From a virus (taxonomy: Duplodnaviria > Caudoviricetes): a stretch of 64,000 nt of DNA. Numbering within the stretch: position 1 is the first letter of the stretch; the number at the start of each line of letters is the position of its first letter. The notes beneath the pieces are model-generated. The model was not told the origin of the DNA. It was given only the letters and a program-made list of their open reading frames with translations, and searched no databases. Made by a program: the position numbers and the translations under genes. This document shows, piece after piece, positions 42,681-63,833 of the stretch. Location of the stretch: IMG/VR virus record IMGVR_UViG_3300028591_000009, positions 1 through 64,000 of that record; one strand, written 5' to 3'.

Positions 42681-43693
42681 AGGTTCAATGACTCTGAGCC
42701 ATCGCCTTCATAATATTCTCTACTATGTTCCCACTTATTGTTAGTCTGATGCCAATATATATCTTGCATAGCTTTCAATATAGTATCTTTTCTAGAATAT
42801 ACATCAAACTGATCAATCTTAAATACACGAATATCACCACTTCCTGTAGTATCTATACCGATAATATAGAACTCAAAAGACCATTTATTCCAGTCTTCTT
42901 TGAGCTCATATCGCAAATACCATACGACAGCTTGATAATAATAACAAAGCTGTCTGAGATAGTCATATTGATTCATACTATCCTCAAAGTGCCATAACTT
43001 TTGTGTAGTCTTTAAGTCATATATGATAGCTTTCTTATTCTTAAAATCAAGAGTAAGACCATCTAACAATGACTTACACGCAACACCAGCTGCCATTTTT
43101 ACATAGTATGTCCAGTTTATATGAAATTCGTGATGATTCTCAAACACTACATCATCTTTATAATCACGAAGTGTTCTCGAAGCTTCTATTATAGAGTAAG
43201 CAAGTTTATGGGATTGTACATTCTGCTTAATTCTCTCAAGCATTCTGTACTCTGAAGGAGTTATCATAATACGACCATCGTTTTCTTTCAGGAAGTCTAT
43301 ATAATCCTTCAGCGTAGAGGCTATTTTCAGGCCTTCTGACAGCATTTTGTCTTCTGACTTTCCTGCTGTACTATATGCTTCTTTATAAGCGCTTAGAATG
43401 GCTCTATTCGGCTCTATTTCTAAAGAAGATGCTAAAGCCTGACAGAACTTCTCTTGCTGTGCAGAGAAAGGTCTACTTTTGTTCCAGACTACATAGTCCT
43501 TTTGAAACTCTTCAGGCTGTAACAGATACTCGTGAATCATAGTTCCACGCTCCAACACAGGGTTCTTTTCCTCTGGTGGAGGGTCTGTAAGCATCTTATG
43601 CAAAAAGGCTGGTCCCTTGTTTAGGAACCAGCCTATGTTCGAATTGGATATTCTAGTTAAATCCTCATAATAAGGAACTGATATGTCCATCAT
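42677..43693 (-). CDS. PD-(D/E)xK exonuclease (RecE/DUF3799-like), 338 aa
   Basis: ISNS..., GTMIHEYLL, CKSLLD...IYDLKTT, YLRQLCYY motifs. Confidence 0.8.
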   Translation of the reverse strand: MMDISVPYYEDLTRISNSNIGWFLNKGPAFLHKMLTDPPPEEKNPVLERGTMIHEYLLQPEEFQKDYVVWNKSRPFSAQQEKFCQALASSLEIEPNRAILSAYKEAYSTAGKSEDKMLSEGLKIASTLKDYIDFLKENDGRIMITPSEYRMLERIKQNVQSHKLAYSIIEASRTLRDYKDDVVFENHHEFHINWTYYVKMAAGVACKSLLDGLTLDFKNKKAIIYDLKTTQKLWHFEDSMNQYDYLRQLCYYYQAVVWYLRYELKEDWNKWSFEFYIIGIDTTGSGDIRVFKIDQFDVYSRKDTILKAMQDIYWHQTNNKWEHSREYYEGDGSESLNL

Positions 43694-44472
43694 CGTTTAG
43701 ATATGTTAAGGAATTCAATAATATCATCAAAGGAATCATCAGGATTATTCTTTATCTCTTCTCCAAATATAATAACATTATCATAAGATATAGTATCAAC
43801 ATTGCTGCAAATATATTCTGCTGCTGCATCTGCTTTATCTTTATCCCCAATAATATCATTAATGATTCCTTTAACACTATCCTTTGTAAGACCTCCAAAA
43901 CACTTCTTATAACGTATACGAGAACACCTATCGTTCAAATACGTATTGATTTCCTTCTCATCATTACATGTTGCAATAACCATCTTTTTACAAGTAGGTT
44001 TTACACCATCTAAAAATCCAAGGAGATAACGAGTATTCCAATACTTATCGATTTCGTCAAAGATAATACATACATCGGTTGTAAATTTCGCAAAAAACGG
44101 CTCAATGTCATCAGACGACATTTTACTGTCTACTACTATGATAGGCAGGCCAGACTCTTTAGCTATTTTCTTAGCCATAAGTGTCTTACCACATCCTTTC
44201 ATACCACTAAGAAGTATGCCTGTTGTCATCTTCTCAGTTTTATTAAACGTATCGATAGCTTTGTTTATAAATTTAATATCTTTATCGTTCAAATAGTACT
44301 TCTTTGGAAATTCGAAATCTTTGTCTTCGACTAAATAATCCACATACAAATCACGATCGTGAATTAAAGTATATACCTTACCTGGTATAAGATCATAGTC
44401 TACACCGAAAGGTTTTGGGATTATATGGCCGTTATCATTGACAAAAGAATTGTTTTTATTTTGTTTTTCCAT
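43690..44472 (-). CDS. AAA+ ATPase, 260 aa
   Basis: Walker A GMKGCGKT, Walker B IIFDEIDK, sensor TCN, R-finger DRCSRIRY. Confidence 0.85.
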   Translation of the reverse strand: MEKQNKNNSFVNDNGHIIPKPFGVDYDLIPGKVYTLIHDRDLYVDYLVEDKDFEFPKKYYLNDKDIKFINKAIDTFNKTEKMTTGILLSGMKGCGKTLMAKKIAKESGLPIIVVDSKMSSDDIEPFFAKFTTDVCIIFDEIDKYWNTRYLLGFLDGVKPTCKKMVIATCNDEKEINTYLNDRCSRIRYKKCFGGLTKDSVKGIINDIIGDKDKADAAAEYICSNVDTISYDNVIIFGEEIKNNPDDSFDDIIEFLNISKR

Positions 44473-44854
44473 TTTTACTGACTTTAAGTTCTTGAATCAT
44501 GGCGTCTACATCTTTATGATTTCTCACAAGATATAGCTTAGTTTTCGCGTGATGCTTATACAAGTAATACTTGAAAAGCTTCCAACGCAAAGGAAATGAA
44601 TCTCCCATAAGACCTTTACATTCTACTATAAAACCTCGTCCTACGAAGTCTGGTAGATATGTAATAGGTCTTATTTTTTGACCCATCCACTCGAACTTTG
44701 GTAGCAGAGTAAAATGCTTTGGCTCATATTTTACAGGTATCCCTGCTTCCATAAAAGCTTCATACGTATAGAGTTCGAGCTTACTACGAAAATGTAGTCC
44801 ATACGCATCGACCGCTGTCGCATTTTTAACCCTACCTTTAGACTTCGACATCAT
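44456..44854 (-). CDS. DUF1064 / T7 endonuclease I-like nuclease, 132 aa
   Basis: FRSKLE...YEP...YLPDF...VECKG motif series. Confidence 0.8.
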   Translation of the reverse strand: MMSKSKGRVKNATAVDAYGLHFRSKLELYTYEAFMEAGIPVKYEPKHFTLLPKFEWMGQKIRPITYLPDFVGRGFIVECKGLMGDSFPLRWKLFKYYLYKHHAKTKLYLVRNHKDVDAMIQELKVSKNGKTK

Positions 44855-45098
44855 AACAGATGTCCTTCACACCTCTATCGTCTAATCGAACTGCTGTAAT
44901 GATTTTACCATTCTTTCTTATAGCAACATAGGTATACTTGTCATTATCAAACTTTCTATCTATGGCTATCAGTTCGTATCCATCCGATAAACTCTTAATC
45001 ACATAAGGCTGTGTAGCATTCTTATATGAAATGTATAGTGATACGATTGTGGTGATAAACGCACCCAAAAACGTACCAAGGATCAATGTCTCAACCAT
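44838..45098 (-). CDS. Small membrane protein, 86 aa
   Basis: N-terminal hydrophobic helix; overlaps both neighbours. Confidence 0.7.
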   Translation of the reverse strand: MVETLILGTFLGAFITTIVSLYISYKNATQPYVIKSLSDGYELIAIDRKFDNDKYTYVAIRKNGKIITAVRLDDRGVKDICYDVEV

Positions 45099-46062
45099 AC
45101 TGTATTGTTTTTTGTAACCAATTCTTTACTTCTGTAAAGTCGTTTGACTTCACCGCGTCCGAAATATCTTTTGAGTTAAACTTCTTATGGACAAATATAG
45201 CATCTATTTTATATTTCTTACTATATTCTCTAGCTTTCCTCATACCAGTTGCATCTCTGTCAAATAGTATGACAATACGCTTCCATTTATATCGTAAAGA
45301 CTTCAATATATCATCAGGTATAAATGTAGTCTCACTCGAAGGTGATATAGCACTAAAACCCATCTCATACAAACACATAACATCTTTTAAAGACTTAGTG
45401 ATTATAAGGATATCCCCTCCCTCATAGGGCAGTTCAGCCAATCCCTGTACGTGCCGATTTGTCAGATTGGTACGCCATTTAGTATACTTTGAGGCTAAAG
45501 GTCTATAAATTTTAAATTTATCATAAACCTTATATGCATACATAGGACTGGTATCTTTGTAGGTTCCTCTGACGACTCTATTACAAAGATAGTATTTAAT
45601 GCTAAATACATTGAATTTCTTCAACGTATCCAGAGATATATGGAATTGCTTCCAGTATTTTTTATCAACTTCTGTAAATGGTTGACGAACTATTCCGATG
45701 TCAGATTCTCCAGAAGGAGTATATGACCGTGTCACAGTTGCCACACTGCTGGTTGGATTGGATCGCTTAACGATTCTCAGCAGTTCTTTCTCTAGTTCCT
45801 CACGTGTTTGAATATTCTTATAGAGTTTCATGAACTTCAGAGCATTTCCAGACACTCCTGTTCCATGATCTTTAAACAATAAAGCACCATCCTTAGTTGC
45901 GAATATAGCGAACGATGGCATCTTATCGTCTCCTCTTAAAGGACTATTCATAAGTTTCCCTGGCTTAAAAGCACCAAGATAATAAGAATAGATAGTATAG
46001 TCATCCACTTTATTCAACAAGTCTCTAAGACTCATTGTAATCGCTGTTTTTGTACTATACAT
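45091..46062 (-). CDS. DnaG-like primase, 323 aa
   Basis: SPLRGDDKMPSF (degenerate Zn-binding region), TOPRIM ITKSLKDV, FDRDATG, KDISD. Confidence 0.85.
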   Translation of the reverse strand: MYSTKTAITMSLRDLLNKVDDYTIYSYYLGAFKPGKLMNSPLRGDDKMPSFAIFATKDGALLFKDHGTGVSGNALKFMKLYKNIQTREELEKELLRIVKRSNPTSSVATVTRSYTPSGESDIGIVRQPFTEVDKKYWKQFHISLDTLKKFNVFSIKYYLCNRVVRGTYKDTSPMYAYKVYDKFKIYRPLASKYTKWRTNLTNRHVQGLAELPYEGGDILIITKSLKDVMCLYEMGFSAISPSSETTFIPDDILKSLRYKWKRIVILFDRDATGMRKAREYSKKYKIDAIFVHKKFNSKDISDAVKSNDFTEVKNWLQKTIQYG

Positions 46063-46083
46063 GGCTTATAAGCTCTTAGTATG

Positions 46084-46166
46084 TGGGAAATGAGGGATTC
46101 GAACCCTCACGGTCAACTGACCAAGGGATTTTAAGTCCCTCGCGGCTACCTTTACGCCAAAATCCC
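46084..46166 (-). tRNA. tRNA-Leu(TAA)
   Basis: Cloverleaf with AGGGA-CTTAAAA-TCCCT anticodon arm, long variable arm, GAGGG-TTCGAAT-CCCTC T arm; two U-U mismatches in the acceptor stem. Confidence 0.85.
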
Positions 46167-46170
46167 GACC

Positions 46171-46470
46171 TTATACAACTCTAAACTCATTCTTGAGTTT
46201 ATTTTTAAGTTGCCATTTGTACATTTTTTCAATTTCTTTCAATTGTGAATCATCTTCACAATAATCTACCCAAGGTGTCCATACGACACCTTCATGGGTC
46301 CAATATTGATATCGTTTTTGTATCATAACTGAAGGGGCTGACAGATTTATTCCATCAGTCTTCCACCACTGACCGTTTATTCTAACATAATCGCCAGCAA
46401 TACACTTTCGTGGGCTGTCAACGTGCGAATATACGCGTATTAAATTAGAAAGGTTGGTCGTCAGCACCAC
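46171..46470 (-). CDS. Hypothetical Trp-rich protein, ~99 aa
   Basis: GTG-start ORF in operon orientation. Confidence 0.55.
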   Translation of the reverse strand: MVLTTNLSNLIRVYSHVDSPRKCIAGDYVRINGQWWKTDGINLSAPSVMIQKRYQYWTHEGVVWTPWVDYCEDDSQLKEIEKMYKWQLKNKLKNEFRVV

Positions 46471-46476
46471 TGACTG

Positions 46477-46596
46477 TCATAACCAGTAGAACGGGTCGTT
46501 TTTTCGTCTCCATTCCCTTAGTTTCAGCCAATCATCATAATGCATATAGTATGTAATACCATTTACATTAATCTCAAAAAGGCAGGTCGTCAGCAC
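46477..46596 (-). CDS. Small ORF, 39 aa (MLTTCLFEINVNGITYYMHYDDWLKLREWRRKNDPFYWL)
   Basis: GTG start overlapping the SSB end; fills the gap between two direct repeats. Confidence 0.45.
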   Translation of the reverse strand: MLTTCLFEINVNGITYYMHYDDWLKLREWRRKNDPFYWL

Positions 46597-47164
46597 CTGT
46601 AGTCTCAGTAACCGGAGCAGTTGTTACACTGAGCGGATCTGCAGCAGGTTCTCTATCTGCTACAATGGGACGCTCCAAAAGATCGTTCTTCCAAAGCTTA
46701 ATCTGAGACTCTGTTACACTCATAGGTTCAATGAAAATACCATTCTTGGATACCTGTGTATAACCGTTCTTATCATAAGTTACCTTAAGACGAGCGGTAC
46801 CACTTTCTCCATCGTTAAGACACATCTTAGCCCAAGTAATCATCTCGATAAATGAAGAACCTTCAAAATCGTTATGACCACCTTTAATTGCATCTATTAC
46901 CTGCAGAATACGACCGAACTGCTGATTATCACGACGCTGAAGATCTTCATCCGTCTTAATCCACATATTCTTCTCATTCTTCCACTCAGTCATAGTAGCG
47001 GTCTGACCATTTTCATTCTCAAAGATAATCTCCAAGAAATCACGACCGTTAGGTGTCTTATTAACGTTTACCTCTTTTAAGGTAATATTCTCATTAATGC
47101 CCACAGGCATATATGAAGAGTTAAACTCCTCATTATTTGTTGTTGCTGTTTTTGTACTATACAT
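46574..47164 (-). CDS. Single-stranded DNA-binding protein, 196 aa
   Basis: Acidic C-terminal tail GADDLPF; lies next to an AAA_24 ATPase and primase. Confidence 0.75.
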   Translation of the reverse strand: MYSTKTATTNNEEFNSSYMPVGINENITLKEVNVNKTPNGRDFLEIIFENENGQTATMTEWKNEKNMWIKTDEDLQRRDNQQFGRILQVIDAIKGGHNDFEGSSFIEMITWAKMCLNDGESGTARLKVTYDKNGYTQVSKNGIFIEPMSVTESQIKLWKNDLLERPIVADREPAADPLSVTTAPVTETTGADDLPF

Positions 47165-47181
47165 AATTTTTAAACTCTGAG

Positions 47182-49938: not shown

Positions 49939-49968
49939 ACTATCGACTCTTGGGTTCTAAGTGTATTA

Positions 49969-51840: not shown

Positions 51841-51867
51841 GACTCATAGGTTCTTTAGTTAATACTA

Positions 51868-51948
51868 GGGACAGGTGCTGGATTCGAACCAACATTCTAC
51901 AGCTGACCTATAGCATTACTGCAGTACTACCATTATACTAACCCATCC
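51868..51948 (-). ncRNA. tRNA-like RNA with 14-nt anticodon loop
   Basis: 8-bp acceptor GGATGGGT/ACCTGTCC, D arm GTAT-AATGGTA-GTAC, T arm GTTGG-TTCGAAT-CCAGC. Confidence 0.7.
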
Positions 51949-56159: not shown

Positions 56160-56229
56160 TTTTCTTTCCTTTTTGATATCGTGGTTGATCCACCAACGAA
56201 AGATTAATAATTCCTGCTTCAAGGTGCAG

Positions 56230-58340
56230 GTTTACCTTGTTTTATATAAGTTTTACATCCGGCTCGGTGGCTCTACTAGATGTTGACGTTAGACGGTTAT
56301 TGTGATTTCAGTTGCTGTGCTTACGGGAAGCACGCTTCTATTAGAGACTAGTTACACTTCTATATTCCTTAAAATGAAGCTCAACTCATGTAACGGGAAT
56401 CCAACGGTAGGATTATCTAAGCCCATCATCTCAATAGGTTCGAAAACTTTGAACGCTGAATATGTGTATCAAACACTAACCCTATTTGTCGGTATGTTTA
56501 TATTTTCGTAAACATTTATTAAATTTATATTAAATCCAATATTCACTTTTTTCGAGTCCGTTGGCAAAATTTTGGAATTATCCAACTAATGTTCATAGGA
56601 CTCACCACAAAAATTTTGCATAGTTTCTCTGTTAGTATATTTCCCAAGTACCTTAAGAGTTAACTACACTACGATTGTCATTTAACCACAGATTTTCTCT
56701 CCTGTTGCATGATTTAAGGCTCATACTACTATTACCTTTCCTTGTTATTTCAACGTGCTTGTGTTTACCTACGTAAGGATTACGTTTCTTTATCGAACAA
56801 TCTAAGAGCTCCATAACTCTTTTCAAGTACTACGATTTAAAATTCTTCCTAGCGATTCTACGGTACTAAATATTTCTTCTCTTGGATGTGTTTACTCACC
56901 CTCATTATTTATAGTGCACGAATACTGGAGGAATTCCACCTCATACATCGCTTCTTGTCACCCACTTAATGTTCCGCTTCATCGAGTCCTAGTTTCACAA
57001 ACTATCCCAAATGCAACTGGTTGTACGGTTTGCTACTTCTATTTCCTTTACCCCTCCGAGACAGGGAGGTGATTTCACTTCGCGATAAGCTGCCCATCGA
57101 TTAAATGTATATGACTTCATGGTCTCTACCGAACACATAGATTTGCTGTCTATGCTCTGATAGGATTCATCTTGTCTATTTGCTTCTCAGGAACGGTTGG
57201 CACTCGATTTCTGGCGTGAAAGCACTCACAAACATTACAAACGGAGTCTTTCGTTGATATACAACATTAATTTCTCCCAGCCAGGGGACATCAATTTTTG
57301 TTAAACATGTTAATTATCTCTTTTGTTTTCTACTACGTATTATCTTCGTTAGAATCTTCTCCCGATAAAGTATAACGGTATATTGTATACAGTTCGTCAT
57401 CTAACTATCATCTTACTTTCGAAGGAAGCGATCTCTCTCTATACTGGAATGTATAGGCTTCGAATCGACCACCTAGATAAGAAATTTTTGGCTATCTAGT
57501 AACCATCTAAAACGCATTTCCTCATCCTTCAAACATAATACTCGCTTACCAGTACTTGTTATCAATTGAAATAGAGTTTCTCCGCGCTCTTCATCCGCGT
57601 ACCATAGGCTCCAGAACCATATGGATTAAGTGGCGCATCCACTTGTAGTCATTTCCTCTTATATCCCGCACAAACGACTAAAGCCTGGCGGTCATCTTCA
57701 TCATATTTTCCTCTGTACCCCATCCCTGGCACCCCTTCAACGGAGTTGTGCACGAATCGAACGGCAAGGATTTCTCCAAGGACCGTAGTTACGGTACGGC
57801 GCAGACAGTCACACCTTCTGCTAGGCGAATATACTCAGATATTTTTCATCCCTTCATACACGTTGTGGAGACGTGGAACACTAGACTACAGCTTAAAGTT
57901 GATACATCATTGAGTGTTTTGGCTTCAAACTCAATGTTGCGACTCCTGTTTCGTTATGCTATCCTTATGTATCATCAGATAGTATGTCGAATACGGTTCA
58001 GTTTTGCCCATCATTCGGGACTTATGCGTCTTCCTTACTAATACCCCACACTTCAAAGAGTCTGGCAAGAGCATAAAGGACTCTGCTGGTATATATTAGT
58101 GTTAGGGTCTGATACATACGCTCACCCTACTTACTATAAGCGATTCGATTATGTAGTACGCATAAAACTTATAGCATTTCATCCTACCTTTTGGATTTCT
58201 CACCATTTGAGATGGCTAACATATTCTCGGATCAAGTTGTACTATTCGCATTCTAAGGTTGATGAGACCTACTCCGTAGACGAATGCTGACGTGTGCCCA
58301 TCGGGCGGGGAATGTATGAATCCTCATACATCCCCCATGC
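56230..58340 (-). ncRNA. ~2.1-kb structured non-coding region; candidate large ncRNA(s)
   Basis: No - strand ORF of 60 aa or more; dense inverted repeats, nested helices and one pseudoknot; purine-rich - strand. Confidence 0.55.
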
Positions 58341-60313: not shown

Positions 60314-60727
60314 TCAAGAATCGTCTACAATTTCTACACTGTTTGGCGGGTTTGGCAAAGCGTGTAGGTATAGTCTATGAGTCACCCCACAGACATCACT
60401 TAAAGTCTGGTTAGGCTCAACCATATCAGGCGTATAATCCTGACTCACAAGGCTTGAAGTTACCTTCACTGGTGTTGTATAGTCTACATACTCAGGAATA
60501 CATACGAATGTTCCCTGTGTAGCCAACAACCCTTGTGTGGGGTACGCCTGGTTGAGCATGACCTGACTTTGTTCCTTCTTTTCGATTGCCTTATGAGCAA
60601 TCGTTCCTACTGTGAAAGCTAATGTATAGCTTACAAATAGGGCCCAGAATACTTTGTTGCTATTGTTGTATCTTGCGATACCCAATATAAACAGTGTTCC
60701 GAGAATGAACAATAAAGCTACTGTCAT
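60314..60727 (-). CDS. Two-TM membrane protein, 137 aa (possible anti-sigma partner)
   Basis: Two N-terminal hydrophobic helices; ATGA-coupled to the sigma gene. Confidence 0.65.
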   Translation of the reverse strand: MTVALLFILGTLFILGIARYNNSNKVFWALFVSYTLAFTVGTIAHKAIEKKEQSQVMLNQAYPTQGLLATQGTFVCIPEYVDYTTPVKVTSSLVSQDYTPDMVEPNQTLSDVCGVTHRLYLHALPNPPNSVEIVDDS

Positions 60728-61287
60728 GATTGTAATTTTAAACGTTGTCTTAACTTACGTCTAGTCCTGGAGAGCGTGGATTTTATAGTTCCTACTGGTA
60801 CTCTAGGATTAAACGTCTTACTAATCTCTTCTACGGTTAAATTATCTACATAAAATCTTTCAAAGATCTTACGAGTGACCTCTGGAAGTTTCTCAAACTC
60901 ACGAAGTAGTTCCTTATACGTCAGATGATTGACTAAGTCATCTTCAGCACAAGCCTGAATATTGGAGTTTAGTCGGTCCTCCTTTATATCAGCTACTTGT
61001 TTGTTCTTTATACTACGCAAATAATCAATTGCAGTTCGATTAGTCAATATTCGCAGCCAACCCCCAAAGGAGTCGTATGCTACAAATTTCGAGAGTTTAT
61101 CATGCACTTTAAGAAAGACAATATTTGCCACTTCTTTAGACTCGTCCATATCTTTTAGATACTGGAACAAAAGACTCTCTACAAAGCCTTTATACTTGTA
61201 GTAAAGTGCATTAAAAGCAAGCTCATCGCCTGCTTGCGCTTTTTTGATTAAGTCAACTTCAGTTGGGGTGATTCTAGGATTCTTCAT
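60724..61287 (-). CDS. ECF-type sigma-70 factor, ~187 aa
   Basis: AQAGDELAFNALY, SFGGWLRILTNRTAIDYLR (region 2), LPEVTRKIF...VGTIKSTLSRTR (region 4). Confidence 0.9.
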   Translation of the reverse strand: MKNPRITPTEVDLIKKAQAGDELAFNALYYKYKGFVESLLFQYLKDMDESKEVANIVFLKVHDKLSKFVAYDSFGGWLRILTNRTAIDYLRSIKNKQVADIKEDRLNSNIQACAEDDLVNHLTYKELLREFEKLPEVTRKIFERFYVDNLTVEEISKTFNPRVPVGTIKSTLSRTRRKLRQRLKLQS

Positions 61288-62364: not shown

Positions 62365-62438
62365 TGATTCCTGAACGATTCGAACGTTCGACCGACAGAT
62401 TAGAAATCTGTTGCTCTATCCAACTGAGCTAAGGAACC
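62365..62438 (-). tRNA. tRNA-Arg(TCT)
   Basis: GGTTCCT/AGGAATC acceptor, GCTC-AGTTGGATA-GAGC D arm, ACAGA-TTTCTAA-TCTGT anticodon arm, GAACG-TTCGAAT-CGTTC T arm. Confidence 0.92.
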
Positions 62439-62499
62439 TTTTGAGGCGTTTGTTTTTATAGTGGTGTCAAGCGAGCCTCTGTAAGCATGTCCACAACAT

Positions 62500-62549
62500 T
62501 GGAATGAGTGCAGGCTTCGAACCTGCCATAGTTCCGTTATTACTCATTC
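62500..62549 (-). ncRNA. tRNA minihelix-like element (acceptor stem plus T arm only)
   Basis: GAATGAGT/ACTCATTC 8-bp stem and GCAGG-TTCGAAG-CCTGC joined by a 15-nt linker. Confidence 0.65.
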
Positions 62550-62551
62550 AC

Positions 62552-62860
62552 CGTTCACAGGCACTTAGGTAGCCTGTACACCGACTTCACGCTGCCTCCT
62601 GGAGACCCGTGTAGTCTGCAATGTTATAATTGCCAGTTAATTTTTATATCGAAGCGCTTAACGTCTTACTTTCCGCTGCCGTCAAAACCATTCAAGCCCA
62701 GATTAAAAGCTCCCGCCTCTATCCTCTGTACACCTTCTTCAGTGCCAGCGAGTACACAATTCAGGGAGCTTGGAGTGTTAATCAATAATACACGTGGACC
62801 TGGGCGGAATCGAACCGCCGTCCGAACAGCATATCCTAGGACACGCTAAGATTTCACTTG
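62552..62860 (-). ncRNA. ssrA: Circularly permuted (two-piece) tmRNA: acceptor piece ~62860-62795, intervening sequence 62794-62700, coding piece 62699-~62552
   Basis: Acceptor GGGCUUG/CAGGUCC-A with G3-U70; GGUUUUGAC D-loop analogue; GGAC-GGCGG-UUCGAUU-CCGCC T arm; tag frame 62634-62587 = GNYNIADYTGLQEAA-UGA after UUAACU. Confidence 0.88.
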
Positions 62861-63006
62861 TGAACCTCACAATGATCAGTTGTAAGATTCGATTTAAGGC
62901 TATTTACAGCCTCTCTGACGCATTTTCTATACTCTTGTGGGTAGCTAATCCTCTGGAGTATATTAAACGCTTAGAATGGCTTTTTCATAAACCTTTATTT
63001 GTAGTA

Positions 63007-63263
63007 CATTGCCCTGACTGACTCTCTGGTTCTTGCAGAATATACTCGCATTCTTGATATACAACGCGGTAGCTGCTTCCCTTAATGAAGGTTGACCGCT
63101 CACAGTAGCACCGGTTCATGACTCATACGTCGTAATTGTTGATCTAATGGCAGCATATTATTACACCGTGCTGACGGTGTTGATTTTCGCACGTGACTCA
63201 AAGGTTCTTGTGTATGTGTCAATTCACATAAAGCAGACTACTTCATCCATACCAGGCGCAATG
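63007..63263 (-). ncRNA. ~260-nt structured RNA candidate
   Basis: Closing helix CAUUGCGCCUG (63263-63253)/CAGGGCAAUG (63016-63007); internal hairpins ACACCGT/ACGGTGT and TATGTG/CACATA. Confidence 0.5.
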
Positions 63264-63338
63264 CCATTTTTACATTTTTCGACTGCTTATACACCACTGA
63301 TTCTAGGATTCTGGGTGAGTGAAAATCATATAATGGGA

Positions 63339-63833
63339 TTAATCCCACCAGTAGGCGTAACGACCCTCATAGCTGGCGCGCAGCTCTTCGAGATCCTTAC
63401 GTAACTGCTTGTTGCTCTCAGAGATCTTCTTCTCAATCTCCTCGTTCAACTTACGCTTCTCTTCCTTGTACTCGGTAGGAGTCAGGACTGGCTCTTTGCA
63501 CTTGTTCTTTGTGGGAACCAGGCGACCGTTGACAATCTCTGTCTCAAAGCCGATTACACGCTCGAGCAGCTTCTTCGTTCCGTCCAACTTCTCCTTGGTG
63601 ATGTCGTCTTCACGGCGACGTGCACGGAGTTCCGCACGGGTCTTGACGTTCTGATAGGTGGCCAGACCAATTGCATCCTTGATCTCGCGCTTCTTCTTGT
63701 CTGCCTCCTCCTTCTTCATGTCGGCGACAGCAGCCTCTACCAGAGACTCCTCATCCACGTGGTTGTTTACTTTGAAATCCTGAGGCTCTGCTGCATTTTC
63801 AGCTGCCTTCTTGTTTTCTTTCTTTTCTGCCAT
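63339..63833 (-). CDS. Charged coiled-coil hypothetical protein, 164 aa
   Basis: Biased codons, TATCAAAAATGGCA start context. Confidence 0.8.
   Translation of the reverse strand: MAEKKENKKAAENAAEPQDFKVNNHVDEESLVEAAVADMKKEEADKKKREIKDAIGLATYQNVKTRAELRARRREDDITKEKLDGTKKLLERVIGFETEIVNGRLVPTKNKCKEPVLTPTEYKEEKRKLNEEIEKKISESNKQLRKDLEELRASYEGRYAYWWD

What the first reader, a model, noticed from the sequence alone, without database searches (positions are those of the whole stretch)
63007..63263. Structured RNA carrying two copies of the replication-gene motif: possible sponge
Seen: inside the closing helix are AGAACCUUUGAGUC (63208-63195) and AGAACCAGAGAGUC (63033-63020), differing from the PolB site only in the three loop positions and not near any start codon. 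Inference: a CsrB-like decoy that titrates the putative repressor, giving an operator-plus-sponge circuit for replication timing.
Basis: partly seen in the sequence, partly recalled or inferred. Interest (0 to 1): 0.7.

Follow-up and report, generated by a model that had tools for sequence, protein, structure and literature searches.

The report
Four-hairpin phage RNA sharing replication-gene operator motif
A rumen crAss-like phage carries, just upstream of its own tmRNA gene, a conserved structured RNA with four stem-loops that each display the small hairpin also found at the start codons of its DNA-replication genes; this fits a shared RNA-binding regulator with a decoy RNA, but the binding factor is unknown.

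Summary
Both 14-mers are exactly where stated. The motif has four exact copies in the 106.6-kb genome, all on the minus strand, where chance predicts fewer than one.

The ORF-free stretch 62887-63338 (minus strand) holds four stem-loops capped by this motif. The missed copies are 63312-63299 and 63124-63113.

The motif is a small RNA hairpin, G-A-R-Y-C / 2-5 nt / G-A-R-Y-C. Pairs 4-13, 5-12 and 6-10 covary. Two single-base bulges make it pseudo-two-fold symmetric.

The four-hairpin array, its flanking stems and a pseudoknot are conserved with compensatory changes in more than 25 relatives (Suoliviridae, Oafivirinae). It always lies between an ORF164-like gene and a permuted tmRNA.

Array copies and gene-start copies change type together between genomes: bulge A to U, and spacer of 2, 3 or 5 nt. 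That implies one shared recognition factor.

A local stem with covariation competes with it.

The sponge reading is plausible but unproven. Some relatives keep the array with few or no gene-start copies, and no discrete transcript or binding protein could be shown.

Two earlier follow-ups in this scan describe the same system on other genomes.

The parts
63339..63833 (-). ORF164, the gene immediately 5' of the array. No known domain. Its family sits in this position in all relatives examined.
   Evidence: There are no Pfam or PHROG hits. There are 166 homologues, none with a Pfam domain on record. The AF2 model is helix-beta-hairpin-helix with only weak prefoldin-like matches. Synteny with the array is shown.
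63292..63317 (-). Stem-loop 1 of the array; cap motif AGAATCCTAGAATC at 63312-63299.
   Evidence: Found. The orthologous unit 1 lies at -440 to -520 from the tmRNA in relatives. The flanks pair.
63214..63229 (-). Small conserved hairpin (AUGUG / loop AAUUGA / CACAU) directly 5' of stem-loop 2.
   Evidence: The stems covary in relatives while the loop AAUURA is kept; this is read from the sequences printed.
63190..63212 (-). Stem-loop 2; cap motif AGAACCTTTGAGTC at 63208-63195. This is the first copy named in the finding.
   Evidence: Found. Its lower stem is replaced by other complementary pairs in relatives (for example UAUCA/UGAUA, CUCAUC/GAUGAG, UACGUA/UACGUA), as read.
63151..63179 (-). 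Hairpin 63179-63175/63168-63164, whose loop (63173-63170) pairs with 63154-63151: a candidate H-type pseudoknot.
   Evidence: In one search the hairpin has 96% of cells paired, and 5 of 5 pairs have changes on both sides. The pseudoknot stem has 76% paired, and 3 of 4 pairs have changes on both sides.
63099..63135 (-). Stem-loop 3; cap GAGTC-AT-GAACC at 63124-63113 (2-nt spacer).
   Evidence: Found. The orthologous unit 3 in relatives carries canonical caps.
63004..63045 (-). Stem-loop 4; cap motif AGAACCAGAGAGTC at 63033-63020. This is the second copy named in the finding. The local lower stem is 63045-63041 with 63008-63004.
   Evidence: Found. The lower stem is 95% paired, and all 5 pairs have changes on both sides. 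The cap is 100% paired across 17 sequences.
62846..63003 (-). Conserved hairpins linking the array to the tmRNA (for example GAGGCU/AGCCUU and the long hairpin at about 62858-62888).
   Evidence: This block is highly conserved in the 15-sequence alignment. It is also present in G019. ARAGORN starts its tmRNA call at 62886.
62496..62886 (-). Permuted (two-piece) tmRNA gene; tag GNYNIADYTGLQEAA.
   Evidence: ARAGORN calls it. Rfam RF04321 matches 62587-62845 at 64.5 bits.
51841..51854 (-). Cap motif abutting the ATG of the DNA polymerase gene (0 nt between them).
   Evidence: Found. The polymerase is identified. The orthologous site shows compensatory variants in 60 relatives.
49945..49958 (-). 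Cap motif 6 nt before the ATG of the 188-aa ORF downstream of the polymerase.
   Evidence: Found.
42682..47178 (-). Five further gene-start copies. They are 47178-47165 (SSB, 0 nt), 47944-47932 (Sak4-like AAA_24, 3 nt), 46076-46063 (primase, 0 nt), 44492-44480 (AAA ATPase, 7 nt) and 42695-42682 (166-aa ORF, 1 nt).
   Evidence: The copies are shown.
61270..61283 (-). AGAATCCTAGAATC one nucleotide after the ATG of the ECF-type sigma factor gene. It is identical to the cap of stem-loop 1.
   Evidence: Found. The sigma factor is identified. The stretch is coding, so amino-acid conservation could also explain it.
56261..56274 (-). AGAGCCACCGAGCC at the 3' end of the 2.1-kb ORF-free stretch, 38 nt before the next ORF.
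   Evidence: Found.

Best explanation
The region 63338-62887 (minus strand) encodes a conserved structured non-coding RNA, or RNA domain, with four stem-loops. Each stem-loop is capped by the same mini-helix: G-C pair, bulged A, R-Y pair, Y-R pair, bulged A, C-G pair, closed by a 2-5-nt loop. The same cap sits on or within 0-7 nt of the start codons of the replisome genes (polymerase, primase, SSB, Sak4-like ATPase, AAA ATPase, two unknown ORFs) and of the sigma factor gene. The cap is pseudo-two-fold symmetric, and its two bulged bases change together. I therefore infer that a homodimeric RNA-binding protein, phage- or host-encoded, recognises it. On the mRNAs, binding would cover the AUG and control translation initiation, most simply by repression. 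The four-site RNA would compete for, or store, the same protein. It would then act as a decoy that sets when and how strongly the replisome genes are affected. Shown here: the RNA-level motif, the four-unit array, conservation and covariation, and co-variation of motif type between array and gene-start sites. Inferred: the protein, the direction of regulation, and titration.
For: The motif is non-random and strand-specific. It has 4 exact copies against 0.74 expected. The generalised form has 9 copies on the minus strand and 0 on the plus strand in the genome. In 34 relatives' loci, non-redundant copies number 168 on the gene strand against 19 on the other.

The motif pairs as RNA. Among 155 gene-strand matches to the skeleton AGA..C...GA..C, 119 have both central pairs Watson-Crick, where 1/16 is expected. 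The four complementary classes AC/GT, GC/GC, AT/AT and GT/AC dominate. Direct-repeat classes AC/AC and GT/GT are not among the listed combinations. C6-G10 changes to U6-A10 at the primase and SSB sites and in relative L047.

The array is real and conserved. It has 2-5 (mostly 3-4) caps spaced about 80-105 nt apart at -170 to -730 from the tmRNA in more than 25 relatives. There are 112 sense against 21 antisense skeleton matches, and 99 of the 112 are paired. The flanks of the cap pair: 5.4 against 2.8 pairs in shuffles, and 77 of 101 instances have at least 4 pairs.

On a 17-sequence alignment, 89% of cells pair against 71.5% in shuffles. The covariation score is 0.564 against 0.230 (0 of 500 shuffles reach it). 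Slid controls give 23-41% pairing. G.U is the main departure in the well-aligned helices.

The array and the dispersed sites imply a common factor. U-bulge genomes (G024, G028, G021) have U-type caps both in the array and at dispersed or polymerase sites. G019 has 5-nt spacers in its array, and three of its four dispersed copies also have 5 nt, the fourth 4 nt. A-type genomes have A-type caps in both places.

The position fits translational control. The ATG lies 0-3 nt after the cap in 57 of 168 non-redundant gene-strand copies. The base after C14 is a nearly invariant A, which is the A of the ATG at the +0 sites.

There is weak evidence of transcription. Contigs of two RNA runs from one sheep-gut sample span ORF164, the array and the first part of the tmRNA, at about 2-3 times the depth of most neighbouring contigs.
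Against: No binding protein was identified. About 45 early-region ORFs gave no RNA-binding or RNase domain in Pfam, and those also run against PHROGs gave none. The syntenic ORF164 has an Arg-rich helix only in the near clade, and its sequence does not track the motif type.

Relatives G012, G016, G017 and G018 keep a 3-copy array but show no other complementary copy with a 2-3-nt spacer genome-wide, and only one (5-nt spacer) in the 22-kb polymerase loci of G012, G017 and G018. The array therefore has a function that does not depend on many mRNA operators.

A discrete, abundant transcript is not shown. Only contigs were available, no DNA-contamination control could be laid, and no RNA ends could be read.

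G.U against A.C counts inside the cap itself are too small to exclude an ssDNA hairpin: 4 against 3 at pair 4-13.

The 257-nt segment is not thermodynamically unusual (z = -0.87).
Confidence: 0.4

Rival explanations
1. The caps are recognition sites of a symmetric (dimeric) endoribonuclease. The enzyme would cut the long early transcript next to each cistron start. It would also dice the region upstream of the tmRNA, in the manner of T7 RNase III sites or a miniature bulge-helix-bulge. The array would then be a processing cassette for the tmRNA/tRNA precursor, not a decoy.
For: The cap has pseudo-two-fold symmetry with two opposed bulges. The caps fill the 17-30-nt gaps between cistrons and follow tRNA or tRNA-like genes at the primase and polymerase genes. 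The array lies in a block of RNAs that must be processed: a two-piece tmRNA and tRNA-Arg. Contigs of RNA runs break inside the tmRNA region, which is a weak hint.
Against: No nuclease candidate was found in the early region. In the array the caps are apical, so cutting them would only nick hairpins. One copy lies just inside the sigma factor coding sequence. No RNA ends could be read.
Confidence: 0.2
2. The four-hairpin block is a 5' domain of the phage tmRNA precursor or of its acceptor piece. In this reading it stands in for the pseudoknot ring, or serves as an RNP platform. Its caps would recruit a factor needed for phage trans-translation. The gene-start copies in one clade would be a secondary co-option.
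For: The array is always directly upstream of the tmRNA and is joined to it by a highly conserved hairpin block. It persists where gene-start copies are missing. Contigs of RNA runs run from the array into the acceptor piece. It was found only in the subfamily that shares this tmRNA.
Against: G019 keeps the array and the linker although its tmRNA is not detected by Rfam and its T-arm looks altered. Rfam and ARAGORN tmRNA models do not need the block. No conserved pairing between the array and the coding piece was found; the one attempt was uninformative. This reading does not explain why 8-9 start codons carry the cap.
Confidence: 0.15
3. The caps are nut/boxB-like RNA sites. They would load an antiterminator, for example the adjacent ORF164 with its Arg-rich helix, onto RNA polymerase. 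Transcription would then read through the early and replication region.
For: ORF164 lies immediately upstream of the array, and in the near clade it has a conserved helix ...LRARRRED... that resembles arginine-rich RNA-binding motifs. The caps are small bulged hairpins of the type bound by such peptides; that last point rests on general knowledge.
Against: The Arg-rich segment is not conserved in relatives that keep the same cap. Placement of the cap on the start codon itself at many genes is not a feature of nut sites. No boxA-like companion or terminators were examined. The fold search gave no RNA-binding relative.
Confidence: 0.07
4. The motif acts at the DNA level. It could be a promoter element for the phage ECF sigma factor or the virion RNA polymerase (hairpin promoter as in phage N4), or iterons or an origin in the replication module.
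For: The motif is strand-specific and clusters in the replication module. The phage encodes an ECF sigma factor. A stem with a 3-nt loop recalls N4 virion-polymerase promoters; that point rests on general knowledge.
Against: The cap-to-ATG distance is 0-7 nt and variable, which leaves no room for a transcription start and leader. The -35/-10 spacing of ECF promoters is not met: 3 nt separate the halves. Covariation extends into long flanking stems and a pseudoknot with many G.U pairs. Direct-repeat classes are absent. In phage phi14:2, early promoters of the virion polymerase showed no common motif (bioRxiv 10.1101/2020.03.07.982082). The TGCAAC..ACGT pattern noted elsewhere in this genome has no match near the array.
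Confidence: 0.06

Closest known systems
CsrB/RsmZ-type protein-sponge RNAs with CsrA/RsmA (Gammaproteobacteria)
   Same: A non-coding RNA displays several copies, on stem-loops, of the same short motif that lies at the translation start regions of a set of mRNAs. A homodimeric binder is expected.
   Different: The motif is a bulged, pseudo-symmetric mini-helix, not a GGA loop. There are only four sites, about 90 nt apart, each on a distinct and orthologously conserved stem rather than on many near-identical repeats. It is encoded by a phage of Bacteroidota, and no CsrA-like protein was found. Titration is not shown.
Phage translational operators: T4 RegA sites, T4 gp43 and gp32 operators, and the MS2/PP7 coat-protein hairpin at the replicase start
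   Same: A small RNA element on or next to the AUG of replication genes. The MS2/PP7 operators are hairpins with a bulged purine bound by a protein dimer. RegA controls a regulon of early and replication mRNAs.
   Different: This cap has two opposed bulges and internal symmetry. None of the scanned ORFs hit any Pfam translational-repressor or RNA-binding family. None of those systems has a multi-site non-coding RNA partner.
T7 RNase III processing sites and the archaeal bulge-helix-bulge motif
   Same: Conserved irregular hairpins lie between cistrons of a phage early transcript. In the BHB motif, two bulges on opposite strands are recognised by a symmetric enzyme.
   Different: The BHB motif has 3-nt bulges separated by 4 bp; here 1-nt bulges are separated by 2 bp. 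T7 sites are hairpins of about 60 nt with internal loops. No cleavage is shown here.
Two-piece (permuted) tmRNA genes of RefSeq crAss-like phages cr273_1, cr272_1 and cr130_1
   Same: The locus is the same: the array lies directly 5' of the annotated tmRNA in these records.
   Different: The array is outside the annotated tmRNA and outside the Rfam and ARAGORN models. It is unannotated in the two records whose feature tables I read (cr273_1 and cr272_1).

Membership tests
CsrB/RsmZ-type sponge RNA | Multiple copies of the mRNA-operator motif presented on stem-loops of a non-coding RNA. | tested here: met
   Four capped stem-loops lie in 63338-63004. The same cap lies at 8-9 gene starts.
CsrB/RsmZ-type sponge RNA | The motif is a GGA-containing loop bound by CsrA/RsmA. 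| tested here: not met
   The motif is G-A-R-Y-C/N2-5/G-A-R-Y-C. No Rfam CsrB/Rsm match was found even at E <= 10. No CsrA-like Pfam hit was found in about 45 ORFs.
CsrB/RsmZ-type sponge RNA | A discrete, abundant, untranslated transcript. | tested here: inconclusive
   RNA-run contigs cover the region at higher depth than most neighbouring contigs. Contigs cannot show ends or exclude DNA.
CsrB/RsmZ-type sponge RNA | Sequestration of the regulator relieves its effect on the target mRNAs. | not testable with these tools
   This needs binding and competition assays or genetics.
Phage translational operator (RegA, MS2-coat type) | The RNA element overlaps or abuts the initiation codon of the regulated genes. 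| tested here: met
   The cap lies 0-7 nt before the ATG at seven genes in this phage. It lies 0-3 nt before the ATG in 57 of 168 non-redundant copies in relatives.
Phage translational operator (RegA, MS2-coat type) | A cognate repressor protein is encoded by the phage. | tested here: inconclusive
   No known RNA-binding family was found among the early ORFs. Most of them are of unknown function.
Bulge-helix-bulge (splicing endonuclease substrate) | Two 3-nt bulges on opposite strands separated by a 4-bp helix. | tested here: not met
   The bulges are 1 nt each and are separated by 2 bp.
lambda-type nut/boxB site | A hairpin bound by the arginine-rich motif of an N-like antiterminator, with a boxA companion, placed promoter-proximal in early operons. 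| tested here: inconclusive
   The Arg-rich helix of the neighbouring ORF164 is present only in the near clade. boxA and terminators were not examined. Placement on start codons is atypical.
tmRNA (RF04321 / ARAGORN permuted model) | The region is covered by the tmRNA model. | tested here: not met
   Rfam covers 62587-62845 and ARAGORN covers 62496-62886. The array lies at 63004-63317.
Any Rfam 15 family | A covariance-model match. | tested here: not met
   There is no match in 62887-63338 at the gathering score or at E <= 10.
ECF-sigma promoter | A -35 (G)GAAC and a -10 CGT/GTC separated by about 16-17 nt, upstream of a transcription start. | tested here: not met
   The two halves are 2-5 nt apart and covary as base pairs. 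The caps abut start codons.

The most novel reading that the evidence does not exclude
A dsDNA phage of Bacteroidota runs an operator-plus-decoy circuit. In this reading, a dimeric RNA-binding regulator sits on a symmetric bulged hairpin at the start codons of the whole replisome and the phage sigma factor. A four-site structured RNA, co-located with the phage tmRNA, titrates it and so times replication. This would be the first protein-sponge RNA described in a phage. It would also be the first global post-transcriptional regulator of this kind in a phylum that, to my knowledge, lacks CsrA, Hfq and ProQ.
Probability: 0.3. Interest if true: 0.85.

Novelty: new variant of a known kind. Interest (0 to 1): 0.66.

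Why it matters
crAss-like phages are among the most abundant gut viruses, and almost nothing is known about how they time gene expression after transcription. This work defines a conserved RNA element, with a precise and testable consensus, that marks the replisome genes. It also occurs four times in a structured RNA beside the phage tmRNA across a whole subfamily, found in ruminant, pig, macaque and human samples.

The element gives a direct bait for finding the regulator. If the regulator is host-encoded, it would also be a handle on translation control in Bacteroidota, which do not use Shine-Dalgarno pairing. The concerted switches of bulge identity and spacer length between genomes are a natural specificity experiment.

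Tried and rejected
1. It is strong in this phage (-18.6 kcal/mol, z -2.4) and in L125 (z -1.5). In 13 other relatives it is not clearly better than shuffles (z from -1.46 to +1.8). The local stem around cap 4 is favoured in nearly all relatives and covaries.

2. Thermodynamic stability of the 257-nt segment. It is not unusual: z = -0.87 on the minus strand and -1.12 on the plus strand.

3. Direct-repeat reading of GARYC..GARYC. I rejected it because AC/GT and GT/AC are common while AC/AC and GT/GT are absent.

4. The TTGACA upstream of cap 2 as a -35 box. I rejected it because it is the loop and 3' strand of a small hairpin whose stem covaries.

5. ORF164 as the binder. The fold search gave only weak prefoldin-like matches (E > 0.5). 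The protein atlas gave nothing. Its Arg-rich helix is not conserved where the cap is, and its sequence does not follow the A/U type.

6. Pfam scans of about 45 early ORFs, and PHROG scans of about 20 of them, for RNA-binding or RNase domains found nothing relevant.

7. RNA-run contigs. They cover the region, but no transcript ends, strand or level can be read.

8. Duplex search for pairing between the array and the 3' part of the tmRNA coding piece. The output was sprawling and uninformative, and one run timed out.

9. RNAalifold on the plain MAFFT alignment found only two helices, because the alignment is not structure-aware. I then scored a hand-set structure.

10. The literature searches listed no paper describing this element in crAss-like phages.

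11. The ECF-type pattern TGCAAC..ACGT has no match near the array.
Full report
CONTEXT. The window is the first 64 kb of a 106.6-kb virus record with direct terminal repeats. Its DNA polymerase is 78% identical to those of crAss-like phages cr272_1 and cr273_1 (Crassvirales, Suoliviridae, Oafivirinae). The sequencing runs that hold it are from sheep, goat and cattle gut. Genes from about 42 kb to 75 kb lie on the minus strand. They form the early and replication module: polymerase, DnaB-like helicase, primase, SSB, Sak4-like ATPase, AAA ATPase, exonuclease and an ECF-type sigma factor. The finding lies in an ORF-free stretch (62887-63338). This stretch sits between a 164-aa ORF (63339-63833) and a permuted tmRNA (ARAGORN 62496-62886, Rfam RF04321 62587-62845), which is followed by tRNA-Arg.

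OBSERVATION. Both 14-mers are at the stated coordinates on the minus strand. They share all 11 fixed positions with the copy that abuts the polymerase ATG. There are four exact copies in the genome, all on the minus strand. The expected number is 0.74 even with one mismatch allowed, and 0 of 100 shuffles reach four.

WHAT THE MOTIF IS. I relaxed the motif to AGARYCNNNGARYC. This gives 9 copies in the genome, all on the minus strand, with none for the reversed control. It gives 33 copies in five relatives, all but one on the gene strand. In 80 polymerase loci (914 kb), the skeleton AGA..C...GA..C occurs 155 times on the gene strand and 22 times on the other.
- 119 of the 155 have positions 4-13 and 5-12 both Watson-Crick, where 1/16 is expected.
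- They fall into four classes: AC/GT, GC/GC, AT/AT and GT/AC.
- The direct-repeat classes AC/AC and GT/GT are not seen.

At the orthologous polymerase site the cap is kept while its letters change: AGAACC..GAGTC, AGAGTC..GAACC, AGAGTT..AAACC and AGTATC..GTATC. In this phage the primase and SSB copies have U6-A10 in place of C6-G10.

The element is therefore a hairpin with this order of parts: G2-C14, bulged base 3, pair 4-13, pair 5-12, bulged base 11, pair 6-10, and a spacer. Read 5' to 3', both strands say G-A-R-Y-C, so the duplex has a pseudo-dyad. The two bulged bases switch together from A to U in some genomes. The spacer is 2, 3 or 5 nt. I read this as the footprint of a dimeric recogniser. 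That is inference.

THE FINDING REGION IS HALF OF A FOUR-UNIT ARRAY.
- AGAATCCTAGAATC lies at 63312-63299.
- A 2-nt-spacer copy, GAGTC-AT-GAACC, lies at 63124-63113.

In more than 25 relatives there are 2-5 (mostly 3-4) caps, spaced about 80-105 nt apart, from -170 to about -730 nt from the tmRNA model start. I reached these relatives through the ORF164 homologue, the polymerase and the tmRNA family. The arrays themselves are shown. Each unit is orthologous to the same unit elsewhere and has its own flanks.

Skeleton matches in these upstream regions number 112 on the sense strand and 21 on the antisense strand, and 99 of the 112 are paired. The 14-nt flanks of the caps pair with each other. 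They form 5.4 pairs against 2.8 in shuffled flanks, and 77 of 101 instances have at least four pairs.

On a 17-sequence alignment I scored a hand-set structure: a hairpin plus loop-to-downstream pseudoknot between units 2 and 3, the lower and middle stems of unit 4, and its cap.
- 89.3% of cells pair, against 71.5% in shuffles.
- 18 of 21 pairs change on both sides.
- The covariation score is 0.564 against 0.230, and 0 of 500 shuffles reach it.
- Sliding the 3' partners by 1-3 columns drops pairing to 23-41%.
- G.U is the commonest departure in the well-aligned helices, which points to RNA of this strand.

Rfam has no family here, even at E <= 10.

It is present and stable in this sequence (-18.6 kcal/mol, z -2.4) and fairly so in L125 (z -1.5). 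In 13 other relatives the corresponding segments are not clearly better than shuffles (z from -1.46 to +1.8). The local stem around cap 4 is favoured almost everywhere and covaries: 95% of cells pair, and all five pairs change on both sides. The two helices compete for bases 63008-63007. The whole 257-nt fold is not unusually stable (z = -0.87). The architecture is therefore four local stem-loops plus a pseudoknot, not one closed domain.

LINK BETWEEN ARRAY AND GENE STARTS. In this phage the cap lies 0-7 nt before the ATG of seven genes: polymerase, the 188-aa ORF after it, Sak4-like ATPase, SSB, primase, AAA ATPase and a 166-aa ORF. It also lies 1 nt after the ATG of the sigma factor gene. 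In relatives, 57 of 168 non-redundant gene-strand copies have the ATG 0-3 nt downstream. The nearly invariant A after C14 is the A of the ATG at the +0 sites.

Motif type is genome-specific and is shared by the array and the dispersed copies.
- U-bulge caps occur in both places in G024, G028 and G021.
- G019 has 5-nt spacers in its array, and three of its four dispersed copies also have 5 nt; the fourth has 4 nt.
- A-type caps occur in both places elsewhere.

A caveat: G012, G016, G017 and G018 keep a three-cap array but have no other complementary copy with a 2-3-nt spacer genome-wide. The 22-kb polymerase loci of G012, G017 and G018 show just one copy, with a 5-nt spacer, and that of G016 shows none. 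The array therefore cannot exist only to buffer many mRNA operators.

DISTRIBUTION. The array and the caps are present in RefSeq Oafivirinae: cr273_1 and cr272_1 (pig), cr130_1 (macaque) and a Bohxovirus from human airways. A Bohxovirus is reported to target Prevotella jejuni (PMC12697116, abstract listed). The pattern gave no array in cr52_1 (Loutivirinae).

TRANSCRIPTION. Two RNA runs of one sheep-gut sample hold 95-96% of the stretch. Their contigs span about 63850 to about 62735-62801, which covers ORF164, the array and the start of the tmRNA. The depth is 320 and 1505, against about 100-220 and 200-560 for most neighbouring contigs. Contigs cannot show ends, strand or level, and DNA in the libraries cannot be excluded, so this is only a weak hint. 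In the crAss-like phage phi14:2, two long intergenic regions are transcribed above most genes, and early promoters share no motif (bioRxiv 10.1101/2020.03.07.982082).

WHO BINDS IT. This is unknown. About 45 ORFs of the early region gave no RNA-binding or RNase family. ORF164 always sits just 5' of the array. Its model is helix, beta-hairpin, helix, with a conserved Arg-rich helix in the near clade. However, the fold search found only weak prefoldin-like matches. The Arg-rich segment is lost in relatives that keep the same cap, and its sequence does not track the A/U type. I do not claim that it binds.

MECHANISM AND ODDS.
- Best reading (0.40). A dimeric RNA-binding factor recognises the cap. 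On the mRNAs it controls initiation at the AUG it covers. The four-site RNA competes for or stores it.
- Rival 1 (0.20). The caps are recognition sites of a symmetric endonuclease that processes the early transcript and the tmRNA precursor.
- Rival 2 (0.15). The array is a tmRNA-linked RNP domain, and the mRNA copies are a secondary co-option.
- Rival 3 (0.07). The caps are nut-like antitermination sites.
- Rival 4 (0.06). The motif acts at the DNA level as a promoter or iteron.

COMPARISON AND NOVELTY. Functionally the nearest model is CsrB/RsmZ with CsrA, combined with phage translational operators (RegA; the MS2 coat hairpin with its bulged purine). The element is not a member of any of these families. 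The motif differs, no homologous protein is present, and titration is untested. The literature searches listed no description of it. Two earlier follow-ups in this scan reached a similar reading on other genomes. They are not independent evidence.

What this report adds:
- the pairing register and symmetry of the cap;
- the concerted bulge and spacer switches shared by array and gene-start copies;
- the pseudoknot and the local stems that replace the proposed closing helix;
- the relatives that keep the array without operators;
- the restriction to Oafivirinae.

Noticed in passing
62470-62530 (-): A 'top-half' tRNA mimic lies right after the tmRNA coding piece. It has an acceptor stem GAAUGAGU/ACUCAUUC and a T arm GCAGG-UUCGAAG-CCUGC, and it ends in CA. 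A weak Rfam YrlA hit at 62386-62550 (E 0.053) overlaps it.
   Followed up: no
51869-51947 (-): A tRNA-like element scores 42 bits with Rfam, but ARAGORN does not call it. It lies 14 nt upstream of the polymerase cap. A T-arm-like sequence sits upstream of the polymerase gene in most relatives.
   Followed up: partly
56199-58171: In the RNA-run contigs X2 and X3, many joints skip 70-1093 nt inside the 2.1-kb ORF-free stretch (table 5). These could be strain indels, collapsed repeats or RNA processing.
   Followed up: no
60724-61287 (-): This is a phage ECF-type sigma factor (Sigma70_r2/r4). Codons 2-6 spell the cap AGAATCCTAGAATC, identical to the cap of array unit 1. The same holds in four relatives.
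   Followed up: partly
63339-63833 (-): The ORF164 family has 166 homologues and no domain on record. Its model is helix, beta-hairpin, helix, with a conserved aromatic C-terminus (..YWWD). It is always the gene immediately 5' of the array.
   Followed up: yes
L134:1687-2200 (relative G019): This relative keeps the four-cap array (5-nt spacer) and the linker hairpins. Its tmRNA is not detected by Rfam, and its T-arm region looks altered.
   Followed up: partly
67564-67577 of the genome (outside the window; L153:3664-3677, -): A further cap copy, AGAATCTTGGAATC, lies on the gene strand in the early region upstream of the window.
   Followed up: no
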